From: an uncultured Ignavibacteria bacterium
GTDB taxonomy: Bacteria > Zixibacteria > MSB-5A5 > DSPP01 > RBG-1
Reading direction: 5' to 3'
DNA: 64,000 nucleotides
Assembly (NCBI GenBank): GCA_964399055.1
Contig: CAYNPJ010000001.1
Location: 582,935-646,934 of the forward strand
Part shown: piece after piece, positions 5,872-53,878 of the stretch
Position numbering within the stretch: position 1 is the first letter of the stretch
How the letters are laid out: every line of letters starts with the position of its first letter
Notes under the pieces: generated by a model
Seen by the model: only the letters and a program-made list of their open reading frames with translations
Told to the model about the DNA's origin: nothing
Database searches by the model: none
Made by a program: the position numbers and the translations under genes

Positions 5872-5889
5872 TCTGATAATTTTTAGCTT

Positions 5890-8978: not shown

Positions 8979-9149
8979 TACCGGAGTAGGAATGGGGTTA
9001 AGTGCGCCAACATATATAGATTGGATTAATGATAATATTATGCCAATAATTAATGAATATTGTCCAGCATGCGGAGTTTATCCCATGGGTCCTTAGGTCG
9101 TTATTGTTTGTGGATGTCAAGCAGTGAAAAGAGAATCTAAAGGAAAATC

Positions 9150-31724: not shown

Positions 31725-31760
31725 TTCTATGAATAGTAGATTAATCTAAATGTAAAAATC

Positions 31761-32292: not shown

Positions 32293-32516
32293 TGGGGAAG
32301 TATCCAAACTTTTTGGATACTCAAAAGAAGTTGCTTTGACTAAAAGCTTATTATATCATTTCTTTATTTACGAATCATCTGTCGAGACTTGGGAGCCATG
32401 GGAATATTGGGACCTTTATTCTGACATGTATGGAGTAACAAGTGCGTACTCAAGATGAGAACTTTTTGTTTACACGAATTAGAGCCAAAACGATCTAACA
32501 GTTAAAGGACCCAAGA

Positions 32517-33365: not shown

Positions 33366-33540
33366 TTGATGCCTTCAGCTTGTGTCAAAAACATCAATAC
33401 ACAGACATGCATAAGTTCTTGGCAACTTGTTAAAAGTAAATTTATAGATATGTTATTTAATTTACAGAATGGATCAATAGGTTTGGCTTACATTGATTTT
33501 TTCAATCAAAATCCTAACATTCTTTGACTGAGGAGGTGGA

Positions 33541-34101
33541 ATGAAACGAATAATCTTCTCACTTGGGATAGTATGGGTTATTTACTCTTTTGGTTGGTCT
33601 GTCCAGAACCCCAAACGAATAACAGAATTCTCCATAGCTGCCTCTTTTCAGCTTTTGCAAAGTGGAGGAGAGACAGAAAGCTTCCTTAATATTCCTATTA
33701 GAGCGGGATACTTTTTTAAAAGAAATATAGAAATAGAGGCCGAATTCACCTTAACCGCACCTGAGAATGCAGACGCGGGCTACATTTTATCGGGCATTGC
33801 CTCCTATAATTTTATAACACCAGGTGGACTTATGCCATTTATCTCAGCTGGATACGGTGTTACTAACTCCTATCCAGTTGTCAGCAATCAGGTGGTTACT
33901 AATGCTGGCGGAGTAACCTTAGGCGTGTTAAACTTGGGCGGAGGTCTGAAAGTACCCATGGGGACAAAGGCAGCTCTGAGAGCTGAGTACCGCTTTCAGA
34001 ACTTTACCGGAAAACGTGATGTGACAGGGCCTTTCCAGCAAAATGAGATAAGCTTTCGAGCACATTCCATTTTCACAGGCGTCAGTTTATTTTTACCTTA
34101 G
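33541..34101 (+). CDS. small outer-membrane beta-barrel protein (OmpW/OmpA-beta-barrel-like)
   Basis: Signal peptide and eight-strand-like pattern with Gly/aromatic alternation. Confidence 0.45.
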   Translation: MKRIIFSLGIVWVIYSFGWSVQNPKRITEFSIAASFQLLQSGGETESFLNIPIRAGYFFKRNIEIEAEFTLTAPENADAGYILSGIASYNFITPGGLMPFISAGYGVTNSYPVVSNQVVTNAGGVTLGVLNLGGGLKVPMGTKAALRAEYRFQNFTGKRDVTGPFQQNEISFRAHSIFTGVSLFLP

Positions 34102-34132
34102 ACGAAAAGTGAACAAATTGTAGATCGAAAAG

Positions 34133-34618
34133 ATGAAAAGAGTATTGATAAGCCTATTGTTCATAGCGGTATCCCCGCTTTTCATAATTTTTCATTTGAT
34201 AGGTTGTAATAAATCAACAGTTCCGTTGCCATTTACAGATATAACCGTAACTGATTCGTTGGGTAACGTAATATCCGGTGACCGCTATGATTGGTGTGGG
34301 GGATGTGGAGGTTTAATACCAAGCTGCTACTCTTTCTACCCGGCCTATCCGAACCCTGCCACTGATAGTATCATTCTTTGGTATGGCATACCCCAGCTTT
34401 CCCTAGTCAGTCTGACAATTCGCAACATCTATGGTCAGAAGGTCATAACTCTTTTGGATTATGAACAGCAGGACCCGGATTATCATTTTGTGACATGGTA
34501 TCTTCAAGATTGGATGTCAAATAAAATTCCCTCAGGAATTTACAGGGCTAGGCTCGAATGTTTTTCAAGTGATAAGAAACTAATTTTTGACTGTGAGGGT
34601 GACATAGAAGTAAAGTAG
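34133..34618 (+). CDS. hypothetical lipoprotein
   Basis: Signal peptide with lipobox LIGC, Cys-rich (WCGGCGG). Confidence 0.35.
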   Translation: MKRVLISLLFIAVSPLFIIFHLIGCNKSTVPLPFTDITVTDSLGNVISGDRYDWCGGCGGLIPSCYSFYPAYPNPATDSIILWYGIPQLSLVSLTIRNIYGQKVITLLDYEQQDPDYHFVTWYLQDWMSNKIPSGIYRARLECFSSDKKLIFDCEGDIEVK

Positions 34619-34624
34619 TGGTTA

Positions 34625-35506
34625 GTGAGGCAAGTATACATGGAAGGCTCATCTCGCTTCTTAAAATGGCTATTCTTGATGCAGGTGATAATATGTTTAG
34701 TAGCGAGTCTTAAGGCACAGCCACTTTTACTCTCACTTACTCAAGTCGTAGAGGATACTTCTCAATCGCAGGTCGATACTGTCGATTTCAAGCAATCCTT
34801 AGTAAGCCCCGATACGATAATCCCACAGCTCTCTTTCCGTAACGCAGACATTCGTGATATCTTTGATGCTTTGGCTAAAACCTACAATCTCAACCTCTGG
34901 ATAGATGAAAAAGTTCAAGGGAAAACCACTCTCCACTTGGTCAATGTCTCACTCAACAGCGTGTTTGAATTCTTGGCTCAGCAGAATCAATTAGTCTATG
35001 AAAAATCGGACAACATAATCAAGGTATACAAGGCTCCTCCTCCGCCTCCTGAGCCTCTGAAGATTTTCTATTCGCTCAGTTTCCTTTCGGTTGACTTGAA
35101 GGATGCAGACCTGGCTGAAGTTATCAGGACTCTGGTTAAGGAGAGTAAAGAAAACATAGTCATAGAGGCCGGGGTTATAGGCAGAATAAGTGGCACCCTT
35201 GAGTCAATAGAGTTTGAAAAGGGTTTAAAAGCCCTGATGATTTCCAATGGTTATGTGGTCAGAAAGATTGAGGGGATTTACCACATTGACCGGCTGCCCA
35301 CCGAGCAGCAGGCCCCTACTTTCAAAGGGGTTTATTCAGTCAGCTACAAAGATGACAAGCTCAATATAGATATCGGCAATGCCCAACTATCCAACCTTGT
35401 CCGCCAGATAGCCGAGATGGCCAAGCTGGATATTTTCGTATATGGAGACCTGCAAGGGCAGATTTCGGTCTTTCAGCCGGAGATTCCGTGTCTTCGTCAC
35501 TTGTGA
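34625..35506 (+). CDS. STN/secretin-N-domain protein
   Basis: LSFRNADIRDIFDALAKTYNLNLWIDEKVQGKTTLHLVNVSLNSVFEFLAQQNQLVY fits the secretin/TonB short N-terminal (STN) domain. No secretin barrel domain present. Confidence 0.45.
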   Translation: MRQVYMEGSSRFLKWLFLMQVIICLVASLKAQPLLLSLTQVVEDTSQSQVDTVDFKQSLVSPDTIIPQLSFRNADIRDIFDALAKTYNLNLWIDEKVQGKTTLHLVNVSLNSVFEFLAQQNQLVYEKSDNIIKVYKAPPPPPEPLKIFYSLSFLSVDLKDADLAEVIRTLVKESKENIVIEAGVIGRISGTLESIEFEKGLKALMISNGYVVRKIEGIYHIDRLPTEQQAPTFKGVYSVSYKDDKLNIDIGNAQLSNLVRQIAEMAKLDIFVYGDLQGQISVFQPEIPCLRHL

Positions 35507-35603
35507 ATCAAATCACAAAAAGCTCCTTCTCAAGCGGAAAAATAACCCCCTTTTTACTACCAAAAACCAGCATTTTACCCCTTTTTTGCTATACGAGTGA
35601 ACC

Positions 35604-35680
35604 CGTCATTGCGAGGAGTCCCGTCTTCGACCCTGAGGAGCTCAGACCCGAAGGGAGCTTGTCGAGGGACGACATGGTAA
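35604..35680 (+). repeat. MITE-like repeat sharing its core with the insertion at 46345-46444
   Basis: Starts with CGTCATTGCGAGGAG (same as 29874). Core GTCTTCGACCCTGAGGAGCTCAGACCCGAAGGGAG (35623-35657) is nearly identical to 46367-46399. Confidence 0.4.
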
Positions 35681-35865
35681 TCTGTTTTTAAAACCTCACC
35701 CATCCCTCTCCTAGTAGGAGAGGGTGTAAGATTTCCTCCCCTAAGAGGGGAGGGCTAGGGAGGGGTTTTTTCTACTGAAAGGGGCTTTCTTATTTTGAGT
35801 TTCGTTTTATAACCCTTTGCCTGAACTAATGTTCAGAGAAATGTTTCACGTGCAACAATTTTGCC

Positions 35866-35899
35866 TAATAAAAAAGGCGTCCCGACTTGTCGGGACGCC
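35866..35899 (-). terminator. rho-independent terminator for the minus-strand operon
   Basis: GGCGTCCCGAC-TTGT-CGGGACGCC followed, on the minus strand, by a T-run. Confidence 0.5.
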
Positions 35900-35920
35900 C
35901 TTCACACTGATTGTTGCTAA

Positions 35921-40363: not shown

Positions 40364-41482
40364 GTGCCGATTCGAGAAGTCCGCAATAAATTAGACCTAA
40401 GGAAATTCACTCTCCTCCCCTGGAAAATCTATAAGAAAGACCCACACTGGGTGGCGCCCTTAATCTCAGAGCGCCTGAGATTTTTCAGCCCTAACAGAAA
40501 TCCCTTTTTCAAGCACGCGGAGGTAAAATATTTCTTAGCCGAGAAGAACTCTAAAGTTGTGGGCCGCATCGCCGGCATAGTCAATCACGCGCACAATCAG
40601 TATCACCAGGATAAGGTAGGCTTCTTCGGACATTTTGAGTGCACCGATGACTATGAAGTCGCCTTAGAACTCTTCGATGCTGCTAAAGAATTTCTTAAGT
40701 CCAAGGACATGGAATACATGCGGGGCCCGGCCAATTTCTCCTCCAATGACGATATGGGCTTCTTGGCCGAAGGGTTTGATTCGCCGCCGGTCTTGATGAT
40801 GCCTTACAATCCGCCTTACTATTTAGAGTTTGCGGAAAGATACGCCATGAACAAGGTCAAGGACTTATACGCCCTGTACATGCACAAGGAGAGCCTACCC
40901 CCGGAGAGAATGAATGCCATAGCAGAGAGAATCAAAAGAAATGAAAAGATTACCATTCGGAAGATTGACCCCAAGAATCTGGAAAAAGAAATCACTTTAA
41001 TCAAGGAAATCTACAACTCGGCCTGGAGCAAGAACTGGGGCTTTGTCCCCATGACTGAAGAGGAGATTGATTTCTTGGCTGACGACCTGAAGAAGGTTTT
41101 AGACCCGGATATCGCTTATTTAGCTTTCGTGGAAGATAAACCTGCCGGATTCTCTTTATCCCTGCCGAACATCAATCCGGTCTTGCAGAAACTGAAAGGG
41201 AGCATCTTGCCTTTGGGGTGGCTGAAGTATCTCTGGTACACCAAGGTCAATAATTTAGTCGATGGACTGCGGGTGATTACCTTAGGGGTGAAGCCGGAGT
41301 ATCAGAAAAAGGGGATTGACGTGGTCTTCTATGTGGAGACTTTTCAAAAGGGGATAGCAAAGGGATACAACTGGGGGGAGTTTAGCTGGATTTTGGAGGA
41401 CAACTACCTGATTATTAAGCCCTTGGAGGCGATGGGGGCGAGGGTGTATAAGGTGTATAGGATGTATGAGATGAGGATTTAG
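40364..41482 (+). CDS. hypothetical protein, possibly a GNAT-fold (FemAB/BioF2-like) acyltransferase
   Basis: 372 aa, coupled to the alpha-oxoamine synthase. Weak resemblance to FemAB-like acyltransferases. Assignment uncertain. Confidence 0.3.
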   Translation: MPIREVRNKLDLRKFTLLPWKIYKKDPHWVAPLISERLRFFSPNRNPFFKHAEVKYFLAEKNSKVVGRIAGIVNHAHNQYHQDKVGFFGHFECTDDYEVALELFDAAKEFLKSKDMEYMRGPANFSSNDDMGFLAEGFDSPPVLMMPYNPPYYLEFAERYAMNKVKDLYALYMHKESLPPERMNAIAERIKRNEKITIRKIDPKNLEKEITLIKEIYNSAWSKNWGFVPMTEEEIDFLADDLKKVLDPDIAYLAFVEDKPAGFSLSLPNINPVLQKLKGSILPLGWLKYLWYTKVNNLVDGLRVITLGVKPEYQKKGIDVVFYVETFQKGIAKGYNWGEFSWILEDNYLIIKPLEAMGARVYKVYRMYEMRI

Positions 41483-41588
41483 AGATGGCAAGTCCGAGCT
41501 TATACTCTCGTACCGCTCACGTTATCTTCTTGTAAAACAATAACATAGCACTGACGTCTTCTAGATCTAAAAATATAATAGATTTTTC

Positions 41589-41617
41589 TTGACAGTTCGT
41601 ATATGTTAGGTATATTT
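41589..41617 (+). promoter_or_regulatory. sigma70-like promoter for the AT-rich three-gene operon
   Basis: TTGACA, 16-nt spacer, then TATATT, about 40 nt upstream of the 41659 start. Confidence 0.3.
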
Positions 41618-41658
41618 GTAATAGTTAACGATATTTCAAAATATAGCACATATTTATT

Positions 41659-41874
41659 ATGGATGAAAACAAAAGAGACAGGTTCTTAAGATTAGCAGCA
41701 AAACGAACGAATTCGATCTTAAAAAAGATTCGCGTATTAGGTAACTGTGCTAATAGAAATTACTACGAATACACAGAAGAGGACTTGCGGAAAATATTCG
41801 CGGCTATTGAGAAGCAGCTTCAAGCTGTAAAGTCGAAATTTCAGCCTTCAGGGGAAAGGGAGTTCAAACTCTGA
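41659..41874 (+). CDS. hypothetical small protein (first gene of island operon)
   Basis: 71 aa, helical and basic (FLRLAAKRTNSILKKIRVLGN). Stop overlaps the next start (TGATG). Low GC. Confidence 0.4.
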   Translation: MDENKRDRFLRLAAKRTNSILKKIRVLGNCANRNYYEYTEEDLRKIFAAIEKQLQAVKSKFQPSGEREFKL

Positions 41875-42572
41875 TGCAGCCGATACATGAAATGTTCCCG
41901 GGGTTACCTGAGTTTTCACCAGATACCTACTTGAAGATTGGCATGGATGATTTGGTAACTGTATCGCTTCACTTTCTATTGGAATCAGGAAAGCCACCCA
42001 CTTTTGAGAACTTAGTTGCGCTTGCTTACTCATTGTTTCCCCAACGATTTTCGATGGTTGGTTATGCTCAGTGGCCCGATTCTGCAATTATTAACAAATG
42101 TTGGCTTAGGTGCAGGACTGATAAGAAGCTGATTTCTGGAAACGTTGCATCCGGTTTTCAACTCACGCCAAAGGGCAAGTTCGTTACAGAAAAAACGCTC
42201 GCGAAACTTCTACCTTCGTTGGAATTTGACAAAGACGGAAAAGGAAAACTTCAGAGAAAAGGCGGAGACAGAAGGACAGCAGCCGGGCGAGTGGTTTCTA
42301 GGGTCGAAAAAAGTACTGCATTCAATAAGTACAAGTCTGATGGTCACGTTGAAAACGTATCAGAGTACGAACTCTGTGATATTCTGTACTGCACTTTAGA
42401 AAGTTCCGCAGAGACTCTTAAAAAAAATTATGAGTTGGTCAGCCAATATTTAAAGGAGTATTCCAGAGATGACTTGGTCAAATTCATCGACATGCTCAAA
42501 GTAAAATTCAGCAGTAAATTTCTGGCCTCTAAAATTCGTGGCGGAATGCTTCCAAAGAAAGGGCATTGTTGA
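41874..42572 (+). CDS. hypothetical protein (second gene of island operon)
   Basis: 232 aa, no recognisable motif. Translationally coupled on both sides. Confidence 0.45.
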   Translation: MQPIHEMFPGLPEFSPDTYLKIGMDDLVTVSLHFLLESGKPPTFENLVALAYSLFPQRFSMVGYAQWPDSAIINKCWLRCRTDKKLISGNVASGFQLTPKGKFVTEKTLAKLLPSLEFDKDGKGKLQRKGGDRRTAAGRVVSRVEKSTAFNKYKSDGHVENVSEYELCDILYCTLESSAETLKKNYELVSQYLKEYSRDDLVKFIDMLKVKFSSKFLASKIRGGMLPKKGHC

Positions 42573-42583
42573 AGGAGTATAGC

Positions 42584-44467
42584 ATGGTAATACTTCAAAA
42601 GAAGAAACTCCAAGCGAGTTCAAGGGCGTTTCAAACTCTAGCATCTCAAGCAATAGGAAATGACCTTCTAAAGGGCTTAGTTGAACTTATAACAAATAGT
42701 GATGATAGTTATTTTCGACTTGAGAAAAATGGTGTAACGACTTCCGGTAAAATAGAGATCGAAATTGAGAGACGGCCCAGAAGTAGACAAACTTTGGTGC
42801 GAGTTCGGGACTTCGCACAGGGTATGGATAATCAGCAGATGGATGAATGTATTGCTCATAATGGTGATGATGTTAGTGGCGACACTGGACGAGGCTTTTT
42901 TGGTATGGGTTTAAAAGATACGATCATAAATTTTGGCAAAGGAGAAATTTATTCAGTCAAAGACGGTAGATATTATAAATGTCGACTTGAAGGAGATGAT
43001 TTTACTCCATTTCTACCACAAAGGGTTGATGCCAAGCTAAGGAAGGAACTCGGCATTGCAAATAATGGTACTCTCGTCTCGATTTTAGTCATGAATCCTA
43101 GAGTGAGGATACCTCAATTCGATACCTTGCGCGAAGATTTACAAAACCATGTTCTATTAAGATTGATAATGAAGGATCCAAATAGAACTATAATCCTCCG
43201 CGACCTGCGTACCGGCACAGAAAATACCTTATTCTACCAGGAACCAGAAATAGAAGAGATTTTGTACGACGATAATTTTGGATTGGATGACTATCCTGAG
43301 GCGGACCTCCATCTTACAATTAAAAAGGCTAGGGGAGCTTTCCAATTGAGTCAAAATGGCTCTTGTAGAACAGGTGGAATATTATTTACAACTAGAAGAA
43401 CGGTTCATGAATCTACGATGTTGGAATATGATTCAGACCCTTTTGCGGCGAAACTATTTGGGGAGCTGAGATGTGAATACATTTACGAATTGCAAAAAAC
43501 AGCCGAACCAGTCGTAGACCGAAATAGGGATGGACTGAGAAGAAATCATCCTTTCACTAGATCCTTATTTAGGAAAATATTTCAGATATTAAAATTGATA
43601 GTTGATGACGAGAAACAAAAGCAAAAAGACCGTGAACGTGAATTAGAAAATGAAAACACGCGACGTCGATTTCGAGAAGCAGTACGTGAGTTGAATCAAA
43701 TTGCTTCAGTAGAGCTAGAGGATATCGGTGGTCTCGGTCCTGGCCCTGGCCCGATTACGAAAAAGCCGAAGTTTCCTGCAAATGATTTTGAATTCATTCC
43801 CGATACGTATAGGATAGTTGTTGGAAAACGCCAGGATTTGAATCTCAGGTTAATGCTGGGCCCGCTTCTGCGCACTGGTTCTATTGTAAATTTCTCGACG
43901 GAATGTACGGGTCTAACTGTGATTAATCCGGTAGAGAAAATACCAGAATCGGACGATTCGACATTGCCGGTTAATATGAAGGTGACAATAGAGGCTCATA
44001 GGCATGGGGCAGAGGGGTTTGTGGCTGCCTCCTGCGGCGACAAAAAAGCCGTTGCTCTCGTTGAGGTAGTTTCTCTTCCAGACGATATTGAAAGACCCCA
44101 TCAACCGAGGAGAGCTGGACTATTCAGAGATATCAAGTACGAGAACCAGGACAATGTTCAACGGGCAAGATTTGAACAAGCTACAGGGATTATCTACATA
44201 AATACATCTGCGCCGTCGGTAAGGCTGTATTTTGGCCCTGAGGGTGAGGGTCAAGACCTAGGTCCTAATAGAGTATTACAGGCTGAGCTTGTAACTGAGC
44301 TCGCATGTAGAGAGATAGCCAAGATTAAGCAGTCAAAATCGCTTATTGATCTCCCGCCCGGCATTGAGCCAATAGACGCGTTTTACAATGAGATCAACAG
44401 GCTAAAGGGAGCATACGCGGAAAAAATTCATGAATGTCTTGTCGATTCAAAATTCAGAAGAAGTTGA
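42584..44467 (+). CDS. GHKL/Bergerat-fold ATPase-domain protein (HATPase_c-like N-terminus, large unknown C-terminal region)
   Basis: RBS AAGGAG before the ATG at 42584. N-box-like LVELITNSDDS, then G1/G2-like HNGDDVSGDTGRGFFGMGLKD. Roughly 450 aa of uncharacterised C-terminal sequence. Confidence 0.55.
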   Translation: MVILQKKKLQASSRAFQTLASQAIGNDLLKGLVELITNSDDSYFRLEKNGVTTSGKIEIEIERRPRSRQTLVRVRDFAQGMDNQQMDECIAHNGDDVSGDTGRGFFGMGLKDTIINFGKGEIYSVKDGRYYKCRLEGDDFTPFLPQRVDAKLRKELGIANNGTLVSILVMNPRVRIPQFDTLREDLQNHVLLRLIMKDPNRTIILRDLRTGTENTLFYQEPEIEEILYDDNFGLDDYPEADLHLTIKKARGAFQLSQNGSCRTGGILFTTRRTVHESTMLEYDSDPFAAKLFGELRCEYIYELQKTAEPVVDRNRDGLRRNHPFTRSLFRKIFQILKLIVDDEKQKQKDRERELENENTRRRFREAVRELNQIASVELEDIGGLGPGPGPITKKPKFPANDFEFIPDTYRIVVGKRQDLNLRLMLGPLLRTGSIVNFSTECTGLTVINPVEKIPESDDSTLPVNMKVTIEAHRHGAEGFVAASCGDKKAVALVEVVSLPDDIERPHQPRRAGLFRDIKYENQDNVQRARFEQATGIIYINTSAPSVRLYFGPEGEGQDLGPNRVLQAELVTELACREIAKIKQSKSLIDLPPGIEPIDAFYNEINRLKGAYAEKIHECLVDSKFRRS

Positions 44468-44585
44468 TTCCCTAGCTTGGCCGGATAATAAAAATCTTAA
44501 AATTGCTGCGACAATACATAAAGCCAGCCCTTATTTATAGTTCAACAAGTTCACTATAAGAGGACTGGCCTTCGGTCAGCATCCT

Positions 44586-44634
44586 TCGACTGCGCTCGGT
44601 ATATGCTGAGGCGGTAGGATTCGAACCTACAATC
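44586..44634 (-). repeat. direct repeat of the tRNA-Asn 3' end plus downstream flank (att-like remnant A)
   Basis: TTCGACTGCGCTCGGTATATGCTGAGGCGGTAGGATTCGAACCTACAATC matches the 3' 29 nt and flank of the tRNA at 48457-48528. Confidence 0.55.
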
Positions 44635-44703
44635 CTTCCCCAGAGCTTGCTATTGTATTCAAGACCGAGTAACTTACCCCCCAGACCATTCAAATTGAGA
44701 GAC

Positions 44704-46332
44704 ATGAAAAACGCCTTACTAATCTGTCCTGAATTCTCGCCCCTGGGATTCTGGAACTACAAGGGCGTTTGCAGATTAGTCGGGGCCAAATATCCGGCTG
44801 CGCCTCTGGGGATCATAACTCTGGCGGCGCTTCTGCCGCAGGAATGGGATATCAGGCTGATCGACATGAACGTAACCGAATTACATGATTCTGATATCGA
44901 ATGGGCCGACCTGGTTTTTATCGGGGGCATGCTGCCGCAGCAGGTTGCGTTTTTGAAGCTGATTGACAGGGTTCACGCCCGCGGTAAGAGAGTTGTTTCC
45001 GGCGGGCCTGACCCAACCTCACAACCCGAAGTCTATAAGAGTTCTGATTATCTGGTTTTAGGTGAAGCCGAAGATACTATCCATTCATTCCTGAATGATC
45101 TATACCGGGGCGCGCAGAAAGGGGTATATTTCCCATCTGAGAATAGACCTGACCTTAGCAGCAGTCCTGTTCCACGGTTTGATTTACTCACTTTTAATGA
45201 TTACCTGATGGTCGGCATCCAGTTTTCCCGGGGCTGTCCCTATAACTGTGAATTCTGCGATATAATTGAGCTTTACGGCCGGGTACCGCGTACAAAATCA
45301 CCTCAGCAAATTGTAAACGAGCTTGGTGTACTTTACGACCTGGGGTACAGAGGTCATATTGATTTTGTAGATGACAATTTCATAGGCCATAAAGGAAAAG
45401 TAAAACAGACTCTGAGAGAGCTCAAGAAATGGTCGCAGGCACATAATTATCCATTTTTCTTCTCGACCGAGGCGTCTGTTAATCTCGCAGATGACCAGGA
45501 GCTTCTCGGACTGATGCGGGATATAGACTTCAGGTACGTATTCATTGGCATAGAATCGGTAAGCGAGGAAGTACTGCGATCCAATCAGAAAAGACAGAAC
45601 CTCAATCGAAAGCTCTCTGACGATCTTCATAAAATCTACAATTATGGAATGGTGGTTAACGGGGGCTATATCGTCGGATTCGATAATGAAACCAGCCAGA
45701 CCACCAGGCTAATTGCCGACTCTATCGAACAGAGTAAGATATGTATGGCTATGGTAGGTTTGCTATACGCCCTCCCCGGTACTCAGCTGACTCGTAGACT
45801 GGAACAAGAAAACCGGCTATCTGAGCATAGCAACCGGTTGGATCCAGGCAACCGGGATAACGTTGACCAGGGCACCAGCGGACTTAATTTTGCCACCCAA
45901 AGACCCAGAAATGAGATAATAGATGATTTTGTGTACATACTGAAGAAAACATACAATGCAAGGAAATACTTCAATAGATGTTTGAGGCTGGGCCGGGCCT
46001 TGAAAGTCAGTAGGAAACACCGGCCTCCATTTTCCAGGAAAGTGATCGCCGCGCGTGCCTTAATCCGGCTGGTCAGACAGCTGGGGTTCTGGCCTTCGAC
46101 CGCTTACTATTTTTGGAGAAACAGCCTGATCATGTTGCTGGTCCGCCCGTCCGCTTTAGCTGAAGTAGTCAATCTTATGGCGATGTACATTCATTTTAGC
46201 AAACAATCAGAATATATCATTGAGCTGATGGCTCGTAATTCGCGGAATGGCGATGAACTGGATAAAGCGGCCACTGCCGCTGTGGCGAAGGAAGCAAAAG
46301 AGATTCTCAGCGGTCAGCCTAACCATCACTGA
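44704..46332 (+). CDS. B12-binding domain radical SAM protein
   Basis: N-terminal cobalamin-binding-like domain (ALLICPEF...IGGMLP). Radical SAM CxxxCxxC SRGCPYNCEFCDI. Start set at the internal ATG 44704. Confidence 0.8.
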   Translation: MKNALLICPEFSPLGFWNYKGVCRLVGAKYPAAPLGIITLAALLPQEWDIRLIDMNVTELHDSDIEWADLVFIGGMLPQQVAFLKLIDRVHARGKRVVSGGPDPTSQPEVYKSSDYLVLGEAEDTIHSFLNDLYRGAQKGVYFPSENRPDLSSSPVPRFDLLTFNDYLMVGIQFSRGCPYNCEFCDIIELYGRVPRTKSPQQIVNELGVLYDLGYRGHIDFVDDNFIGHKGKVKQTLRELKKWSQAHNYPFFFSTEASVNLADDQELLGLMRDIDFRYVFIGIESVSEEVLRSNQKRQNLNRKLSDDLHKIYNYGMVVNGGYIVGFDNETSQTTRLIADSIEQSKICMAMVGLLYALPGTQLTRRLEQENRLSEHSNRLDPGNRDNVDQGTSGLNFATQRPRNEIIDDFVYILKKTYNARKYFNRCLRLGRALKVSRKHRPPFSRKVIAARALIRLVRQLGFWPSTAYYFWRNSLIMLLVRPSALAEVVNLMAMYIHFSKQSEYIIELMARNSRNGDELDKAATAAVAKEAKEILSGQPNHH

Positions 46333-46477
46333 GGCGGTAGGATTGGCCTGTTCCGCCTTCGGCTCTGTCTTCGACCCTGAGGCTCAGACCCGAAGGGAGG
46401 TCCTCGACTCGAAGAGAGCCAGCCGAAGGCTACGTCGAGGAAAACCTACAATCTTCCGGTTAACAGCCGGCTGCACT
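46329..46477 (-). repeat. tRNA-Asn fragment (3' end through D-arm), interrupted by a roughly 100-nt MITE-like insertion in the T-loop (att-like remnant B)
   Basis: CTGAGGCGGTAGGATT [insert 46345-46444] CCTACAATCTTCCGGTTAACAGCCGGCTGCACT is identical to the tRNA at 48457-48528 over 16 plus 34 nt, but diverges in the acceptor 5' strand. Confidence 0.5.
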
Positions 46478-46624
46478 CCCCTGGTGCCAATTAGAGCGAG
46501 ATCAAAGCCGGCTCTACATTAGCAAGCTCAAAAAAAGCGTTGACATTCCCAATATTCGGCCTAAATTTCAATAGAGGTCGTTTCAGCCTATTTAGATAGT
46601 AAACTAACAGCCAAGGAGGAATAT

Positions 46625-48259
46625 ATGTCAATGTCTTCATTAAGGCTGGGGTTAATCTTAGTCATCGCATTAATCCACGCATCCGTAATTTTCAGCCAGG
46701 AAGAGGTGTACGAAGCCTGGGTAGCCCGCTACAACGGCCCGGGTAATTCTGACGACCAGGCCACAGCCCTGGTCCAGGATAACAGCGGGAACGTATACGT
46801 GACAGGTTTTAGCAGAGGAAATGGGACAGGCTGGGATTATGCAACCATAAAGTACTCTCCTGCCGGAGAGGAGTTATGGGTAGCCCGCTACAACGGGCCG
46901 ATAAGCTTTAACGATTTGGCCTACGCATTAGCAGTAGACCAGAGCGGAAATGTGTACGTTACCGGTGGAAGCTTTGACAGCAGCGGGCTCGATTATGCCA
47001 CGATTAAATATTCTCCCTCCGGGGAGAGTCTGTGGGTGAGAAGATATAACGGGCCGGGTGATTCGGCTGACTGGGCCAATGACCTGGCAGTTGACCAGGA
47101 GGGCAACGTATACGTGACCGGTCAGAGCGGCGGAATCGGCAGCCAGGATGATTATGCTACCATTAAATACTCTCCTAATGGAGACAGTCTCTGGGTGAGA
47201 AGATACAATGGCATGGGTAATGAGAACGACGTTGCTAAGGCTTTAGCAGTGGATGACAGCGGAAATATTTTGGTAACTGGCTATAGCGTTGATAGTGTCC
47301 GCTCAGCCGATTTCCTGACCATTAAATATTCCCCTAGCGGGGATACTCTGTGGGTGAGAAGATTAAACGGTCCGGGAAACATGTCCGACAACGCGAATGA
47401 TATAGCCTTGGATGACAGCGGCAATGCGTATGTGACAGGTCATAGCTGGGGTGTCGGCACTTCGCACGACTATCTCACGGTCAAGTACTCGGCTGCCGGG
47501 GCGATGTTGTGGGCCAGCAGATATGACGGTCCGGATGGCAATACGGAATCCGCCTATGCCATATCGGTTGACCCTTATTACAATGTCTGTGTGACCGGTT
47601 ACAGCCTGGGCAGTACCAGCTCAATGGACTATGCCACCGTAAAATATTCCTCTGACGGAGACACCGTCTGGGTAAGAAGGCATAATGGTTCAGACAATGC
47701 TGCCGACCTTGGCAATGCCATAGAGGCAGACCATCTCGGCAATGTCTATGTGACCGGTGAGAGCCCTAACAGTGGTTCTTTCACCGATTTTGTAACCATA
47801 AAATACAGCTCATCAGGCAACAGCACATGGTTGAAACGTTACAACGGCCCTGGAAATGGTAGCGATCGAGCCGAAGATTTGGAATTAGACGACAGTGGTA
47901 ATGTGTATGTAACTGGCCACAGCGCTGGTGATGAATCTTCCGATGATTATGCCACTATTAAGTATTCTCCCTGCTCTGCTGAGAGCCCCTTAGCAGGTGA
48001 TGCCAGCTCGGACCAAACTTATACTTTGGTAGATATCATTGCCACCGTGAACTATATTTTCAATAGACCCGGTTTCGCGGCCTGTTCCTCTAACTCCGCC
48101 ATTTGCTGGTTATCCGACAGATTGTGTCGGGGGGACTGGAATGGCTCTGGTGATGTGACCTTAGGGGATGTGATTCAGGGAGCAAACTTCATTTTTGATA
48201 AATCCGGCGGTCCTTGGTCTCCGGTTTCTTCCTTGGGCTGCTGTCCTTATTCTCCTTAA
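46625..48259 (+). CDS. secreted SBBP beta-propeller-repeat protein with dockerin-like Cys-rich C-terminal domain
   Basis: Signal peptide. At least 8 tandem roughly 50-aa repeats with the YVTG / DYATIKYS / LWVRRYNGPGN motifs (SBBP type). Conserved C-terminal roughly 90 aa ending in CCPYSP. Confidence 0.6.
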   Translation: MSMSSLRLGLILVIALIHASVIFSQEEVYEAWVARYNGPGNSDDQATALVQDNSGNVYVTGFSRGNGTGWDYATIKYSPAGEELWVARYNGPISFNDLAYALAVDQSGNVYVTGGSFDSSGLDYATIKYSPSGESLWVRRYNGPGDSADWANDLAVDQEGNVYVTGQSGGIGSQDDYATIKYSPNGDSLWVRRYNGMGNENDVAKALAVDDSGNILVTGYSVDSVRSADFLTIKYSPSGDTLWVRRLNGPGNMSDNANDIALDDSGNAYVTGHSWGVGTSHDYLTVKYSAAGAMLWASRYDGPDGNTESAYAISVDPYYNVCVTGYSLGSTSSMDYATVKYSSDGDTVWVRRHNGSDNAADLGNAIEADHLGNVYVTGESPNSGSFTDFVTIKYSSSGNSTWLKRYNGPGNGSDRAEDLELDDSGNVYVTGHSAGDESSDDYATIKYSPCSAESPLAGDASSDQTYTLVDIIATVNYIFNRPGFAACSSNSAICWLSDRLCRGDWNGSGDVTLGDVIQGANFIFDKSGGPWSPVSSLGCCPYSP

Positions 48260-48456
48260 TGAGAATTCTTATCTGAAATTTCAAGGTTCAGAGAATAGGT
48301 ACAGAAACGGCAGGATTGGCCTTGTCCGAGCCAGCGGAGGTTGTTCGGGGGAAACTTCTTGTATTAGGTACAGCCATCCCTCCACTCATTTCATTCGCTC
48401 GGGATGAATTTCTCGCTGCGCTCGAAATTCAATGCCTCGACTTCGCTCGGCACAAG

Positions 48457-48528
48457 CTGAGGCGGTAGGATTCGAACCTACAATCTTCCGGTTAACAGCC
48501 GGCTGCACTGCCCTTGTGCTACGCCTCA
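48457..48528 (-). tRNA. tRNA-Asn (anticodon GTT)
   Basis: Cloverleaf folds by hand. Acceptor TGAGGCG/CGCCTCA, U8, D-stem GCAC/GTGC, anticodon loop CTGTTAA, T-arm GTAGG-TTCGAAT-CCTAC. One G-A mismatch at the base of the anticodon stem. No encoded CCA. Confidence 0.6.
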
Positions 48529-48542
48529 ATTTTCAAAGGGCA

Positions 48543-49370
48543 TTAAAAAATCTGTTCTCCCCGTTTGCTCTGACACCTAGGGCAAAAATGAGTCGACCTC
48601 TGCCCTACTAAGATTCTCTTAATTTTCGCTCTACATCTGGAACAGGGTTTCCCCTCTTTGCCATAGGCTTTATGATAAATCTGAAAATGACCGGGATTGC
48701 CCTCCACGTCCACATAATTGTCCACTGAGGAGCCGCCGGTTTTAATGGCTTTGGTCAGGACCTTCTTGATAGCCTTATATAAGCGCAGAAGTTCAACTTT
48801 ACTTAAGCTATAAGTCTTCCTCAAGGGGTGGAGTTTGGCCTCAAATAAAGACTCGTCCGCATAAATGTTACCAATGCCTGCTAAAAAGCTCTGGTCTAAA
48901 AGAGCGGGTTTTAGCAATCTCTTTCTATTGCGGAAAAGTTCAACAAATTCATCAAAACTTATCTGCAAAGGCTCCGGGCCTAATTTTTGAATTGGCTCCT
49001 GGCCATTGGTCATAAGAGCAAGTTTTCCGAATTTGCGGATGTCGTGGAAATGAAGCTCTCCTTGAGCATCTTTGAATCTGAACAGAGCCACGTCATGCTT
49101 GTTGCCTTGGGCTCTCTTACTATAGTAAAAGAGATGGCCGGTCATTCCCAGATGAGCCACAAGAGTTTTATTGTCCGATAGTAAAAAGAGGATATTTTTC
49201 CCCCGCCGGTTTATCTCTTTGATTCTCTTTCTGGGCAGGGAGACTGTTAATTCGCGCAAATCGGATTTAACGATCTTGGGAGAGAAAATCTTGACCTCCT
49301 GGATAGTTCGACCCAGGACAGTCTTTTTCAGCCCGGCCACTACGGTTTCAACTTCAGGTAGTTCAGGCAT
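48543..49370 (-). CDS. mutM: formamidopyrimidine-DNA glycosylase
   Basis: N-terminal MPELPEVETV (catalytic Pro2/Glu3) and C-terminal zinc finger CSRCRAKI...FCPRCQ. Confidence 0.85.
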   Translation of the reverse strand: MPELPEVETVVAGLKKTVLGRTIQEVKIFSPKIVKSDLRELTVSLPRKRIKEINRRGKNILFLLSDNKTLVAHLGMTGHLFYYSKRAQGNKHDVALFRFKDAQGELHFHDIRKFGKLALMTNGQEPIQKLGPEPLQISFDEFVELFRNRKRLLKPALLDQSFLAGIGNIYADESLFEAKLHPLRKTYSLSKVELLRLYKAIKKVLTKAIKTGGSSVDNYVDVEGNPGHFQIYHKAYGKEGKPCSRCRAKIKRILVGQRSTHFCPRCQSKRGEQIF

Positions 49371-52339: not shown

Positions 52340-53878
52340 ATGGGGAAGAGACCGCTGGCCATTCTTCTGTGGGTAGGATTCATCCTATTTTTAGTCTCAG
52401 CGGCAAAGGCCGAAGTGTCAGCGGAAATTGGAGATGACATCCCGGTGGATATTGCAGTTGACCAGAATGGGAATGCGTATGTGACTGGTCTTAGTTACGC
52501 TCCGATTACTGGATTGGATTTTGCCACTTTAAAATATTCATCCGTAGGAGAGCTACTATGGAAAAGGCGTTATCCAGTCCAGGGACATGGTGATGATGTT
52601 CCGGTCAAGTTGGCCCTGGATTATGCGGGGAACTTATATCTCACTGGATATACCGATGATTACCCTACCAGTAATAATTATGCCACTATCAAATACTCTC
52701 CTGTGGGTGGTCTTTTGTGGTCAAAAAGTTATGGCGGGCCTGGCGGTGGCAGCGATGCTCCAACCGATCTGGAGTTAGATGACTCAGGCAATGTTTTTGT
52801 AACCGGTTATGCTTATTTTAATCCAGGTGGCAAAAATTATGTCACAGTGGCTTATACTTTTACAGGGCTCACGATTTGGGGTGCCATATATGATGGGCCG
52901 ATAAATTCAGAAGACCGAGCTGTAGCTTTAGAAGTTAGTCCAGACGGCAATATCTATGTTACGGGTACCAGTGTTAGCCGCCTTCTCTGGTACGATAATC
53001 CATGGGGACCTGGTTATATGGGTCCGGATTATGATTATGCTACAATAAAACTGAATTCTCAAGGCGATACAGATTGGGTGCGGAGGTTCGGCAATTATTA
53101 TGATTATGATTCGCCTAATGACATGGCGCTAGATGATTCTGGGAATATCTTTATAACTGGCATTTCAGGAACTATCAGTTATAAACCAGATGGTAGCGTA
53201 AGATGGACAAATAAAAATCTTCAAGGCAATTTAATAGTTTGTGACACTTCCGGCAATATCTACATACTTAATAAGGAAAGCGTCTCCAAGTATTCCGCGT
53301 CTGGAAGCTTCATTTGGTTTGCGAACCACGGAGGGAATGACTTAGCCTTAGACAAGAACGGCAATGTATATATAGCTGGAGGGAGTTCTGATTTTTTAAC
53401 GGTCAAACTCCCTTCTGGCGGAAGTAATGCTTGGGTAAGACATTATGATGGGCCAGCCGGTGGAACTGACCAAGCCACGGCCATTGCAGTGGACGACAGC
53501 GGGAACGTTTATGTTACTGGAAAAAGCCAGGGGATAGGAACATGTTACGATTATGCCACGGTAAAATACTCGGCAGATGGAAATCAACTCTGGATTAATC
53601 GTTTCAATAATTACTGTCTGGCAATTCCAGGTGATGCCGATGCTAGTAGCGATTTTACCTTAGGAGATATAATAGCCATAGTCAATTATTATTTCAACAA
53701 GCCGGGCTGTTCTCCTCAGCCTTTGTGTTGGTTGTCAAATTTACTATGTCGCGGAGATTGGAATGGTAGCGGCACTATATCTCTGGGAGACATAATTCGG
53801 GGCGTAAATTATTTTTTCAACAAGCCGGGCGGCCCCTGGAATGCACTTCCCAGCGGACCATGCTGCCTAGTGCCGTAG
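52340..53878 (+). CDS. secreted SBBP beta-propeller-repeat protein with dockerin-like Cys-rich C-terminal domain
   Basis: Signal peptide. YVTG and DYATIKYS-type repeats. C-terminal domain homologous to those at 47972-48259 and 62965-63231, ending in CCLVP. Confidence 0.6.
   Translation: MGKRPLAILLWVGFILFLVSAAKAEVSAEIGDDIPVDIAVDQNGNAYVTGLSYAPITGLDFATLKYSSVGELLWKRRYPVQGHGDDVPVKLALDYAGNLYLTGYTDDYPTSNNYATIKYSPVGGLLWSKSYGGPGGGSDAPTDLELDDSGNVFVTGYAYFNPGGKNYVTVAYTFTGLTIWGAIYDGPINSEDRAVALEVSPDGNIYVTGTSVSRLLWYDNPWGPGYMGPDYDYATIKLNSQGDTDWVRRFGNYYDYDSPNDMALDDSGNIFITGISGTISYKPDGSVRWTNKNLQGNLIVCDTSGNIYILNKESVSKYSASGSFIWFANHGGNDLALDKNGNVYIAGGSSDFLTVKLPSGGSNAWVRHYDGPAGGTDQATAIAVDDSGNVYVTGKSQGIGTCYDYATVKYSADGNQLWINRFNNYCLAIPGDADASSDFTLGDIIAIVNYYFNKPGCSPQPLCWLSNLLCRGDWNGSGTISLGDIIRGVNYFFNKPGGPWNALPSGPCCLVP

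What the first reader, a model, noticed from the sequence alone, without database searches (positions are those of the whole stretch)
44586..48528. Tandem array of tRNA-Asn 3'-end direct repeats marks serial island insertions
A complete tRNA-Asn(GTT) lies at 48457-48528 on the minus strand. Copies of its 3' end recur in the same orientation at 46329-46477 (3' end through D-arm, split by a MITE) and at 44586-44634. The latter is the 3' 29 nt plus about 20 nt of shared downstream flank (TCGACT.CGCTCGG). Between the repeats lie a B12-radical-SAM gene and a secreted beta-propeller gene. Just beyond lies the AT-rich operon. This is the signature of successive integrations at one tRNA, each leaving an attL/attR-like remnant. 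No integrase is present, so the elements appear to be fixed remnants
Basis: seen in the sequence. Interest (0 to 1): 0.6.

Follow-up and report, generated by a model that had tools for sequence, protein, structure and literature searches.

The report
tRNA-Asn insertion hotspot with scars
Next to an asparagine tRNA gene of an uncultured Zixibacteria-like bacterium lies a stretch where accessory genes have repeatedly been swapped in and out, leaving four leftover copies of the tRNA's tail; this is a familiar kind of bacterial gene-exchange hotspot, here with no integration enzyme left.

Summary
ARAGORN and Rfam call one tRNA-Asn(GTT), at 48456-48528 (-). Same-orientation copies of its 3' part lie at 44605-44634 (30/30 nt, plus about 24-36 nt of shared downstream flank) and at 46329-46344 plus 46443-46487, split by a 98-nt hairpin element, H. 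I found a fourth, decayed copy at 48301-48379.

Seven related genomes share the backbone UvrD-AhpC-Fpg-tRNA-Asn-[variable]-372-aa gene-aminotransferase. The variable part carries different cargo in each: SBBP propeller, B12-rSAM, AbiE toxin-antitoxin, DNA methylases, SRAP plus a Y-family polymerase, an FG-GAP protein. So this is an accessory-gene hotspot anchored at the tRNA.

The rSAM block ends exactly at two repeats. Its synonymous divergence from one relative is far lower than that of the flanking genes (0.72 vs 0.44 identity, p=2e-10), so it was exchanged laterally.

The simple "serial att scars" reading is only partly right:
- No integrase occurs in the window or in any relative's locus.
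- The H-plus-18-mer unit is a conserved composite found at cargo junctions in five genomes. It is not a MITE that happened to land in a scar.
- One copy spans tRNA positions 10-56, more than a crossover core would need.
- The most decayed copy lies nearest the tRNA.

Verdict: a new member of a known kind, of modest interest.

The parts
48456..48528 (-). Intact tRNA-Asn(GTT), 14 nt downstream of the fpg stop codon. It anchors the hotspot.
   Evidence: ARAGORN; Rfam RF00005, 65.4 bits. The same Fpg-tRNA-Asn adjacency holds in L002, L003, L005, L006/L007, L095, L097 and L104.
48380..48455 (-). Flank F (48432-48455, CCGAGCGAAGTCGAGG motif) plus REP-like short palindromic units directly after the tRNA.
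   Evidence: Shared in the same register with remnant d (D7). Also shared with L002, L097 and the distal 18-mer of L005.
48301..48379 (-). Unit b, old and decayed. It comprises a degenerate tRNA 5' part (48353-48379), hairpin element H with its centre deleted (48318-48352) and a degenerate 3'-end 17-mer AATCCTGCCGTTTCTGT (48301-48317).
   Evidence: (D5). It is orthologous to the units in L002 (full H), L005 and L097, which carry the same internal deletion. It lies within the collinear 76% nt backbone block.
46625..48259 (+). Cargo 1: a secreted SBBP beta-propeller protein (544 aa). A sigma-70-like promoter match lies at 46540-46567.
   Evidence: Pfam SBBP 7e-37; NCBIfam; promoter scan. Homologues of 50-53% identity occupy the same kind of slot in L005+L094 and L102. 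The gene is absent from this locus in L002, L095, L097 and L007.
46329..46487 (-). Unit c. It comprises tRNA positions 10-56 (46443-46487, 43/45), the full 98-nt hairpin element H inserted at T-loop GGTT|CGAATCC (46345-46442), and the 16-nt 3' end (46329-46344, 16/16). It is not a tRNA.
   Evidence: (D8). It is not called by ARAGORN or Rfam. H folds as a long imperfect hairpin. H+16 is 82% identical to the L002 unit.
44704..46332 (+). Cargo 2: a B12-binding/DUF4070 radical SAM protein (542 aa from the ATG at 44704). Its TGA stop (46330-46332) lies inside remnant c.
   Evidence: Pfam and NCBIfam. The family is conserved at 60-70% identity across phyla. The block 44634-46329 is 85.8% nt identical to L013, against 70.8% for the backbone. 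4-fold-site identity is 0.72 vs 0.44, p=1.8e-10.
44605..44634 (-). Remnant d: tRNA positions 44-73, 30/30 identical, with an intact T-arm and no H.
   Evidence: (D7). A counterpart 29-mer in L013 carries that genome's own acceptor variant CCGCCCCAG.
44524..44604 (-). Flank F of remnant d (44569-44604) plus a conserved 45-nt hairpin (44524-44568).
   Evidence: 88.9% identical over 81 nt to L013 417-497. There it lies on the other side of the tRNA remnant.
41483..44523 (+). Distal part of the variable region: an AT-rich (about 41% GC) operon of 71, 232 and 633 aa. The 633-aa protein has a weak GHKL ATPase N-terminus. No tRNA remnant lies at its far edge.
   Evidence: Composition; Pfam. Homology with all relatives stops exactly at the stop codon of the 372-aa gene (41482). 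The nearest relative, L101, has a DNA methylase plus a HerA-like ATPase here instead.
40364..41482 (+). Conserved 372-aa GNAT-like gene, the far boundary of the hotspot.
   Evidence: 72-96% aa identity in L002, L094, L095, L097 and L101-L104, always followed by different cargo.

Best explanation
Window 41.5-48.5 kb is an accessory-gene hotspot. It is bounded by tRNA-Asn(GTT), which lies next to fpg, and by a conserved 372-aa acetyltransferase-like gene. The finding covers its tRNA-proximal half.

DNA segments of one to three genes have entered at the 3' half of the tRNA gene. Each entry regenerated a working tRNA next to fpg and pushed a copy of the tRNA's 3' part downstream. The copies are of two kinds:
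1. An 18-nt 'T-loop to 3' end' repeat that always abuts a roughly 97-nt hairpin element, H (units b and c). [quoted passage not shown]
2. Copies of 30 nt or more that keep the T-arm and the tRNA's own downstream flank (remnant d).

The recombinase genes have been lost, or they act in trans from elsewhere. The segments are now integrase-less remnants. They are reshuffled mainly by homologous recombination in the conserved flanks and between the repeats themselves (gene conversion, deletion).

Shown:
- The repeats and their anatomy.
- The variable cargo between conserved flanks.
- Lateral exchange of the rSAM block.
- Mosaic flanks.
- Absence of an integrase.

Inferred:
- That the original entries were site-specific recombination events.
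- That H is an att arm.
For: Repeats and anatomy.

The conserved backbone UvrD-AhpC-Fpg-tRNA-Asn ... 372aa-aminotransferase carries different cargo in each relative:
- L002: an FG-GAP/dockerin protein.
- L097: AbiEi/AbiEii.
- L095: SRAP plus a Y-family polymerase.
- L003: an N6 methylase.
- L101: a methylase plus a HerA-like ATPase.
- L005+L094: SBBP plus a 199-aa membrane protein.
- L007+L013: rSAM.

Variable-region boundaries fall at the tRNA 3' end or unit b on one side and at the 372aa stop codon on the other.

The H+18-mer composite sits at cargo junctions in the window (b, c), L002, L005, L097 and L102. The insertion point is always GGTT|CGAATCC.

The rSAM block is bracketed by the intact tRNA and a 3' remnant in a second genome as well. 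Its homology block ends exactly at d and c. Its 4-fold-site identity is 0.72, against 0.44 for the flanking genes of the same genome pair, p=1.8e-10.

The distal remnant in L013 carries that genome's own acceptor-stem variant. This is what one expects of a displaced resident 3' end.

Mosaic flank identity between L002 and L097 is 98.6% vs 88.5%.

Precedent: tandem tmRNA-gene islands in Dehalococcoides. They show a mid-T-loop insertion, 20-bp direct repeats, a conserved element motif just upstream of each repeat, and some integrase-less 'cis-mobilizable or fixed' members (PMC3146451). The general tDNA-fragment signature is described in PMC4383910.
Against: - No tyrosine or serine recombinase gene or recognisable fragment occurs in the 64-kb window or in the variable region of any of about 10 related loci.
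- No phage or provirus carries the tRNA 3' end as an attP. The 29-mer gave 0 hits, and the 22-mer hit only jumbo-phage tRNA arrays.
- Segments are 1.7-3 kb, far smaller than typical islands.
- Unit c, and the L094 counterpart, retain most of the tRNA (positions 10-56 and 4-72) and perhaps about 12 nt of its 5' flank. A crossover core does not explain that.
- The decay order is inverted. Unit b, nearest the tRNA, is the most decayed and is shared by four genomes. Remnant d, the farthest, is 30/30.
- Flank F follows both the intact tRNA and d, which simple attL/attR logic does not predict.
- Most relatives have no distal remnant next to the 372-aa gene.
- rSAM belongs to a widely conserved family, which is unusual for island cargo.
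Confidence: 0.55

Rival explanations
1. Local duplication without any site-specific integration. The tRNA-Asn gene, with a little of both flanks, was duplicated in tandem one or more times. The extra copies then decayed through 5' truncation, hairpin or REP insertion and internal deletions. Neighbouring genes were swapped afterwards only by homologous recombination in the flanking core genes.
For: - Unit c keeps positions 10-56, and the L094 pseudo-tRNA keeps positions 4-72, with a 5' flank resembling CTTTGAxAxTTG.
- Flank F accompanies both the intact tRNA and d in the same register (D7).
- No integrase was found anywhere.
- Flank identities are mosaic.
- The region is full of REP-like palindromes, which promote slippage and rearrangement.
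Against: - Duplication does not explain why 18-nt 3' ends cut exactly in mid T-loop recur at junctions between unrelated cargo in five genomes.
- It does not explain why the rSAM block's lateral-transfer boundaries coincide with the repeats.
- It does not explain why variability starts exactly at the tRNA 3' end in L095.
Confidence: 0.2
2. H is an autonomous-looking miniature mobile element, of the MITE or IS200/IS605-derived hairpin type. Its target is the T-loop sequence GGTT|CGAA. It hit dispensable tRNA-Asn copies independently (b and c), because hits in the functional gene are lethal. On this view the repeats themselves arose by either of the routes above.
For: - H occupies the identical T-loop position in two separate copies in one genome and in relatives.
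- There is no target-site duplication, as for Y1-transposase hairpin elements.
- Three Y1_Tnp genes lie in the window.
- A 35-nt H-like core occurs in a REP cluster at 35623-35657.
- G5 has the unit-c-position pseudo-tRNA without H.
Against: - No complete H copy occurs away from the tRNA-Asn 18-mer in about 150 kb of related sequence.
- The hairpins framing the Y1_Tnp genes are unrelated to H.
- The fold z-score of H is only -1.9.
- H could have spread between b and c by gene conversion.
Confidence: 0.15
3. This is a still-active cassette system. One-to-three-gene modules bounded by the tRNA-Asn 18-mer plus H are excised, reordered and inserted by a recombinase encoded elsewhere in the genome. 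Analogues are cis-mobilizable elements, Xer-dependent dif modules and integron cassettes.
For: - Modules are small and lack a recombinase.
- The ends of H and the 18-mer are perfectly conserved in several genomes even though H's centre is deleted.
- d is 30/30 and the 16-mer of c is 16/16, while neighbouring non-coding DNA has diverged.
- SBBP lies on either side of a b-type unit in different genomes (L005 vs L102).
- rSAM is found in a different context in L010/L012.
Against: - No recombinase candidate, no circular junction and no two genomes with the same cassette in two different array positions have been shown.
- Unit b is clearly decaying in the window and in L097.
- Distal array ends lack a site.
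- Conservation of the short repeats can be explained by gene conversion against the intact tRNA.
Confidence: 0.08
4. The repeats are an assembly artefact or a chance similarity.
For: The window comes from a metagenome-derived contig. An independent short-read contig of the same organism (L001) breaks right next to the tRNA.
Against: - E-values of 1e-13 to 1e-16 and three exact 16-mers against about 0 expected.
- Homologous arrays occur in independent assemblies from JGI, ENA and NCBI.
- A contig break at a repeat is what real repeats cause.
Confidence: 0.02

Closest known systems
Genomic islands integrated in tRNA/tmRNA genes, as defined for the Islander database (PMC4383910)
   Same: An intact tDNA lies at one end. 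Displaced 3' tDNA fragments lie downstream in direct orientation and mark the segment ends. Cargo is strain-specific. Both a T-stem/T-loop type and a longer type of fragment are known classes of attachment site.
   Different: No interval contains an integrase gene, which is a filter criterion of Islander. Intervals are 1.7-3 kb with one to three genes. One 'fragment' spans most of the tRNA. The far edge of the hotspot has no fragment.
Tandem ssrA (tmRNA) genomic islands of Dehalococcoides (PMC3146451)
   Same: Several direct repeats of the gene's 3' end are stacked downstream. [quoted passage not shown] A conserved element-derived motif lies immediately upstream of each repeat (here the hairpin H). 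Some array members lack integration genes and were interpreted as cis-mobilizable or fixed. The region is highly variable between strains.
   Different: In Dehalococcoides most islands keep a six-gene integration module with a serine recombinase (DsiB). Here there is none. The target here is a tRNA rather than a tmRNA gene. The upstream motif is a 97-nt palindrome rather than 15 bp. A second class of repeat (d) with the tRNA's own flank is also present.
Cis-mobilizable elements (CIMEs) and accretion of integrative elements (own knowledge of streptococcal ICESt1/3 work; concept cited in PMC3146451)
   Same: Segments are flanked by attachment-site repeats but encode neither recombination nor transfer functions. 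They are arranged in tandem at one chromosomal site.
   Different: No cognate autonomous element using the same site has been found, and mobility is untested.
Recombination-driven horizontal-transfer hotspots between core genes, often next to tRNA genes (own knowledge, e.g. Oliveira et al. 2017)
   Same: Conserved core flanks, rapidly changing small cargo rich in defence-type genes (TA, methylases), no mobility genes, and mosaic flank identities.
   Different: Here internal tRNA-derived repeats subdivide the hotspot and coincide with the borders of a laterally exchanged block.

Membership tests
tDNA-integrated genomic island (Islander criteria) | Intact tRNA/tmRNA gene at one end | tested here: met
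   tRNA-Asn(GTT) 48456-48528
tDNA-integrated genomic island (Islander criteria) | Cognate tDNA 3' fragment(s) in the same orientation at the other end of each interval | tested here: met
   d at 44605-44634, c at 46329-46344 (+46443-46487), b at 48301-48317
tDNA-integrated genomic island (Islander criteria) | Integrase (tyrosine recombinase) gene inside each interval | tested here: not met
   Pfam scans of the ORFs of at least 90 aa judged to be genes (most smaller and overlapping antisense ORFs were not scanned) found no recombinase, only three IS200-type Y1_Tnp genes far away. None was found in the relatives' variable regions, from precomputed Pfam marks on gene calls, tblastn with window proteins and direct scans of part of the cargo.
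tDNA-integrated genomic island (Islander criteria) | Interval absent or different in relatives, with the break in synteny at the tDNA | tested here: met
   Seven different cargo sets lie between the same flanks. Homology ends at the tRNA 3' end or unit b, and at the 372aa stop.
tDNA-integrated genomic island (Islander criteria) | Displaced fragment comprises only the part of the tDNA 3' of the crossover | tested here: inconclusive
   True for b (18-mer type) and d (positions 44-73). Unit c also holds positions 10-56, and L094 holds positions 4-72.
Dehalococcoides-type tandem T-loop islands | Crossover in mid T-loop with a conserved element-side motif directly upstream of each direct repeat | tested here: met
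   H abuts the 18-mer at GGTT|CGAATCC in window b and c, L002, L005, L097 and L102. This does not apply to d.
Dehalococcoides-type tandem T-loop islands | Integration module with a serine recombinase next to attL | tested here: not met
   No recombinase domain in any interval
Cis-mobilizable element (CIME) | Flanked by att repeats and lacking recombination and transfer genes | tested here: met
   The SBBP and rSAM intervals
Cis-mobilizable element (CIME) | A cognate autonomous element uses the same att site, and excision occurs when its integrase is supplied | not testable with these tools
   Scans of viral contigs found no attP.
MITE (for the 98-nt insert H) | Target-site duplication | tested here: not met
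   The insertion lies between GGTT and CGAATCC with no duplicated bases.
MITE (for the 98-nt insert H) | Terminal inverted repeats | tested here: inconclusive
   H is a long imperfect palindrome. The stem CCTTCGGCTGGCTCT/AGAGCCGAAGG is predicted, the z-score is -1.9, and only 3 sequences were available for covariation.
MITE (for the 98-nt insert H) | Multiple dispersed copies in the genome | tested here: not met
   In the 64-kb window and 104 loci, the conserved ends of H were found only next to the tRNA-Asn 18-mer. A single 35-nt core match lies at 35623-35657. The whole genome is not available.
Simple tandem tRNA gene array | All copies are complete, foldable tRNA genes | tested here: not met
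   Only one tRNA is called by ARAGORN, and by Rfam even at E<=1.
Integron | An intI integrase gene with an adjacent attI and a cassette array with attC sites | tested here: not met
   No integrase domain was found in the window. The repeats derive from the tRNA and are not of the attC type. attC models were not run.

The most novel reading that the evidence does not exclude
The tRNA-Asn 18-mer plus the conserved hairpin H is a live recombination site. One-to-three-gene modules (SBBP, rSAM, toxin-antitoxin, methylases) are shuffled as recombinase-less cassettes by an enzyme encoded elsewhere. That would be a tRNA-anchored cassette system comparable to integron cassettes or Xer-dependent dif modules.
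Probability: 0.08. Interest if true: 0.7.

Novelty: new member of a known kind. Interest (0 to 1): 0.3.

Why it matters
It documents, for the little-studied Zixibacteria lineage, a tRNA-anchored accessory-gene hotspot whose cargo changes even between genomes that are 90-98% identical in the flanks. It also shows that a conserved metabolic-type gene (B12 radical SAM) can travel as a repeat-bounded block. For annotation it is a warning: tRNA fragments and a hairpin-split pseudo-tRNA here are scars, not genes, and the rSAM stop codon is supplied by a scar. If the hairpin-plus-18-mer unit proved to be an active site used by a trans-acting recombinase, the locus would become a model for integrase-less gene cassettes at tRNA genes. 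On present evidence it is an ordinary, well-preserved example of a known phenomenon.

Tried and rejected
- Genome-collection scans. The Fpg protein alone found no relative. An Fpg alignment returned only distant phyla such as Acidobacteriota and Firmicutes, with no Zixibacteria, so it was useless for synteny.
- Viral contig scans for an attP. The 29-mer gave 0 hits. The 22-mer hit only tRNA arrays of about 130-190-kb phage contigs. The 372-aa gene has no relative in viral contigs.
- Searches for the function of the AT-rich operon proteins (71, 232 and 633 aa) and other cargo. PADLOC, NCBIfam, PHROGs and PDB sequence searches gave nothing beyond a weak GHKL ATPase match.
- The idea that H is mobilised by the IS200-like Y1 transposases in the window. 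Their flanking hairpins are unrelated to H, so I did not pursue it.
- The idea that c or the L094 copy is an intron-containing functional tRNA. I rejected it because the 5' acceptor strand is missing in c and neither copy is called as a tRNA.
- The idea that the shared flank F is unique chromosomal flank. I revised it: F belongs to a family of short REP-like palindromes that vary in number downstream of the tRNA in relatives.
- A full event-by-event reconstruction of the array history. I abandoned it because gene conversion, deletions within palindromes and lateral exchange make several orders of events equally possible.

Full report
**1. Observation**

ARAGORN finds one tRNA in the 64-kb window, tRNA-Asn(GTT) at 48456-48528 on the minus strand. 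Rfam agrees at 65.4 bits. Even at E<=1 it reports no other tRNA-like match in 44300-48700.

Three same-orientation copies of parts of this gene are real:
- **Remnant d.** 44605-44634 equals tRNA positions 44-73 (30/30). About 24 nt of flank is shared in the same register (44581-44604 vs 48432-48455), and the 54-nt pair is 89% identical (D7; blastn E=1e-13).
- **Unit c.** 46329-46344 is the last 16 nt (16/16). 46443-46487 matches positions 10-54 at 43/45 (E=6e-16). A 98-nt palindromic insert, H (46345-46442), separates the two parts.
- **Unit b (new).** At 48301-48379 lies a degenerate 17-mer (13/17), an H with its centre deleted, and a decayed 5' part (D5, 30, 79, 95).

The exact 16-mer occurs three times. 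Shuffles give 0.6 matches even when 3 mismatches are allowed.

Between the repeats lie a B12/DUF4070 radical-SAM gene (44704-46332) and a secreted SBBP beta-propeller gene (46625-48259). The rSAM stop codon, TGA at 46330-46332, lies inside unit c.

**2. Two kinds of unit**

Read in the tRNA's orientation (alignment A2), the copies fall into two types.
- **Type I** is the T-arm through the 3' end, then 5 nt, then flank F (CCGAGCGAAGTCGAGG...). It occurs after the intact tRNA and in d.
- **Type II** is a tRNA 5' part, then H, then the 16/18-mer (CG)AATCCTACCGCCTCAG. H is inserted exactly between GGTT and CGAATCC in the T-loop, with no target-site duplication. Units b and c are of this type.

F belongs to a set of short REP-like palindromes whose number varies downstream of the tRNA in relatives.

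**3. Organism and backbone**

The best protein matches are named Zixibacteria. Contigs carrying close homologues of Fpg, of the 372-aa protein and of rSAM, together with a metagenome scan for the tRNA 3' 29-mer, yielded about ten related loci.

All share the backbone UvrD-AhpC-Fpg-tRNA-Asn-[variable, 1.2-7 kb]-372-aa GNAT-like gene-aminotransferase.

| Genome / locus | Cargo in the variable part |
|---|---|
| Window | SBBP, rSAM, and an AT-rich 71/232/633-aa operon |
| L002 | FG-GAP/dockerin protein |
| L097 | AbiEi/AbiEii toxin-antitoxin |
| L095 | SRAP plus a Y-family polymerase |
| L003 | N6 DNA methylase |
| L101 (90% nt identical to the window in the flank) | methylase plus HerA-like ATPase |
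| L005+L094 (one genome: 127-nt overlap at 100%) | SBBP plus a 199-aa membrane protein |
| L007+L013 | rSAM |
| L104 | two small genes |

Homology between genomes stops at the stop codon of the 372-aa gene on one side. On the other side it stops at the tRNA 3' end (L095) or within unit b. This is a tRNA-anchored accessory-gene hotspot.

**4. Age and distribution of the units**

- Unit b, directly after the tRNA and its REPs, is present in the window, L002 (full H), L005 and L097. The last two share the window's internal H deletion. Unit b lies inside the collinear 76% backbone block. It is therefore old, although it is the copy nearest the tRNA.
- A b-type H+18-mer also sits on the promoter side of SBBP in L102. 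The window has unit c at that position.
- In the same position L094 has a nearly complete pseudo-tRNA (positions 4-34 and 33-72, both 100% identical). It carries a 36-nt insert in the anticodon loop and no H.
- Remnant d with its flank F and a 45-nt hairpin has a counterpart beyond rSAM in L013. There F and the hairpin are 88.9% identical to the window, and a 29-nt tRNA remnant lies on the other side of them. That remnant carries L013's own acceptor variant, CCGCCCCAG.
- In the window plus 104 fetched loci, the conserved ends of H occur only next to the tRNA-Asn 18-mer. A single 35-nt core match lies in a REP cluster at 35623-35657.

**5. The rSAM block has moved laterally**

Between the window and genome G7 (L007+L013), the rSAM block is 85.8% identical over 1700 nt. 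It spans window 44634-46329, exactly from the edge of d to the edge of c. The UvrD-AhpC-Fpg-tRNA backbone of the same genome pair is 70.8% identical.

At 4-fold degenerate sites of conserved codons, identity is 144/200 (0.72) for rSAM and 138/317 (0.44) for Fpg+AhpC+UvrD. Chance levels are 0.26-0.29, and Fisher p=1.8e-10.

In G7 the block is bracketed by the intact tRNA and the distal remnant. In L010-L012, rSAM homologues of 80-81% identity sit in another context, MgsA-425aa-rSAM. The rSAM family itself is conserved at 60-70% identity across several phyla.

**6. No recombinase, and recombination mosaics**

Pfam scans of the window's ORFs of at least 90 aa that I judged to be genes found no tyrosine or serine recombinase. 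They did find three IS200-type Y1_Tnp genes, at 5.9, 8.5 and 31.8 kb. The hairpins that frame those genes are unrelated to H.

None of the relatives' variable regions holds a recombinase. No viral contig carries the tRNA end as an attP.

L002 and L097 are 98.6% identical on the distal flank but only 88.5% on the proximal flank, and they carry different cargo. That pattern is the signature of homologous recombination across the hotspot.

**7. Most likely mechanism (confidence about 0.55)**

Segments entered at the 3' half of tRNA-Asn. Each entry regenerated the gene and displaced a copy of its 3' part.

The 18-mer type, with H as the element-side arm, matches a mid-T-loop crossover. This is the arrangement described for the tandem tmRNA-gene islands of Dehalococcoides, including a conserved element motif directly upstream of each repeat and integrase-less members (PMC3146451). 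[quoted passage not shown]

The recombinase genes are gone or act in trans. Cargo is now exchanged mainly by homologous recombination in the core flanks. The repeats are homogenised or eroded by gene conversion and by deletions inside palindromes.

What is shown: the anatomy, the variability, the lateral transfer of rSAM, the mosaic flanks and the absence of an integrase. What is inferred: that the original entries were site-specific, and that H is an att arm.

**8. What does not fit, and the rivals**

Points that do not fit the simple reading:
- Unit c and the L094 copy contain most of the tRNA.
- The decay order is inverted: b, nearest the tRNA, is the most decayed, while d, the farthest, is perfect.
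- F follows both the intact tRNA and d.
- Most relatives lack a distal remnant.
- The segments are tiny.

These points keep several alternatives alive:
- Pure local duplication with later decay (0.2).
- H as a T-loop-specific miniature mobile element that hit dispensable copies independently (0.15). This can be combined with either origin of the repeats.
- A still-active cassette system using a trans-acting recombinase (0.08).
- Artefact or chance (0.02). This is excluded in practice by independent assemblies that show homologous arrays.

**9. Comparison with known systems, and verdict**

The locus works like a tDNA-anchored island array and like a recombination hotspot. It fails the integrase criterion of the Islander definition and lacks the serine-recombinase module of the Dehalococcoides islands. 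I therefore file it as integrase-less remnants (CIME-like or fixed) rather than as islands proper.

It is not a tRNA gene array, because only one copy is a tRNA. H does not meet the MITE criteria that could be tested: there is no target-site duplication, and no dispersed copies were found in the sequence held.

Novelty: a new member of a known kind, in an uncultured phylum. The conserved hairpin-plus-18-mer junction is the one feature worth following up. Interest 0.3.

**10. Dead ends**

- Both genome-collection scans failed to give usable relatives.
- The viral scans gave no attP.
- Family and structure-sequence searches for the AT-rich operon proteins gave nothing useful.
- Covariation support for the H hairpin is negligible with three sequences.

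Noticed in passing
window 5883-6448, 8416-8979, 31760-32295: Three copies of a compact IS200-like/RAYT-like unit. Each has a 157-aa Y1_Tnp gene framed by the same hairpins (GTAGACCCAGCTTGCCCCAAGCTGGG ... GGCAACGTGGGTCTACGAGCT). The first two are identical over at least 300 nt, and the third is 76% identical in protein.
   Followed up: partly
window 31725-35920: A low-GC (0.39-0.43) block encoding Y1_Tnp, an OMP beta-barrel, a Por_Secre_tail protein and a secretin-N0/STN protein. It lies between the acyl-CoA dehydrogenase and TPR genes, which are adjacent or nearly so in L002, L102 and L103. It is probably another insertion. REP-like palindromes at 35600-35770 share a 35-nt core with H.
   Followed up: partly
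window 41659-44467: An AT-rich three-gene operon (71, 232 and 633 aa). Its only family match is a weak GHKL ATPase hit at the N-terminus of the 633-aa protein. In the nearest relative (L101, 90% nt identical in the flank) the same slot holds a DNA methylase plus a HerA-like ATPase. It may be an uncharacterised defence-type system.
   Followed up: partly
window 46312-46332: The rSAM reading frame runs into tRNA remnant c and uses its TGA as the stop codon. This gives a C-terminus ...GQPNHH, whereas the homologue in L006 ends a few codons earlier at its own stop (...GQA*).
   Followed up: yes
window 44524-44568; L013 417-470: A 45-nt hairpin (CCAGTCCTCTTATAGTGAACTTGTTGAACTATAAATAAGGGCTGG) is conserved at about 89% with a genome whose backbone is only about 71% identical. 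Paired changes appear to keep the outer stem. Its function is unknown; it may be a terminator or a recombination-associated site.
   Followed up: no
L094 6425-6531 (minus strand): A near-complete tRNA-Asn copy (positions 4-34 and 33-72, both 100% identical) is interrupted by 36 nt exactly within the anticodon loop. ARAGORN does not call it a tRNA. It sits where the window has unit c.
   Followed up: partly
window 52340-53878: A second SBBP propeller paralogue (39% identical to the first) lies between uvrD and gatC. L002 and L003 have unrelated genes in that interval, so this is a second small variable spot in the same neighbourhood.
   Followed up: no
L002 vs L097 (loci): Two close relatives are 98.6% identical on the 372aa/aminotransferase side of the hotspot but 88.5% identical on the Fpg/tRNA side, and they carry different cargo. 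This is a recombination breakpoint at the hotspot.
   Followed up: yes
L001 (Logan contig of the same organism): An independent short-read contig carrying the identical Fpg ends 63 nt past the fpg gene and holds no called tRNA. This is consistent with assemblers breaking at the repeated tRNA-derived sequence.
   Followed up: no
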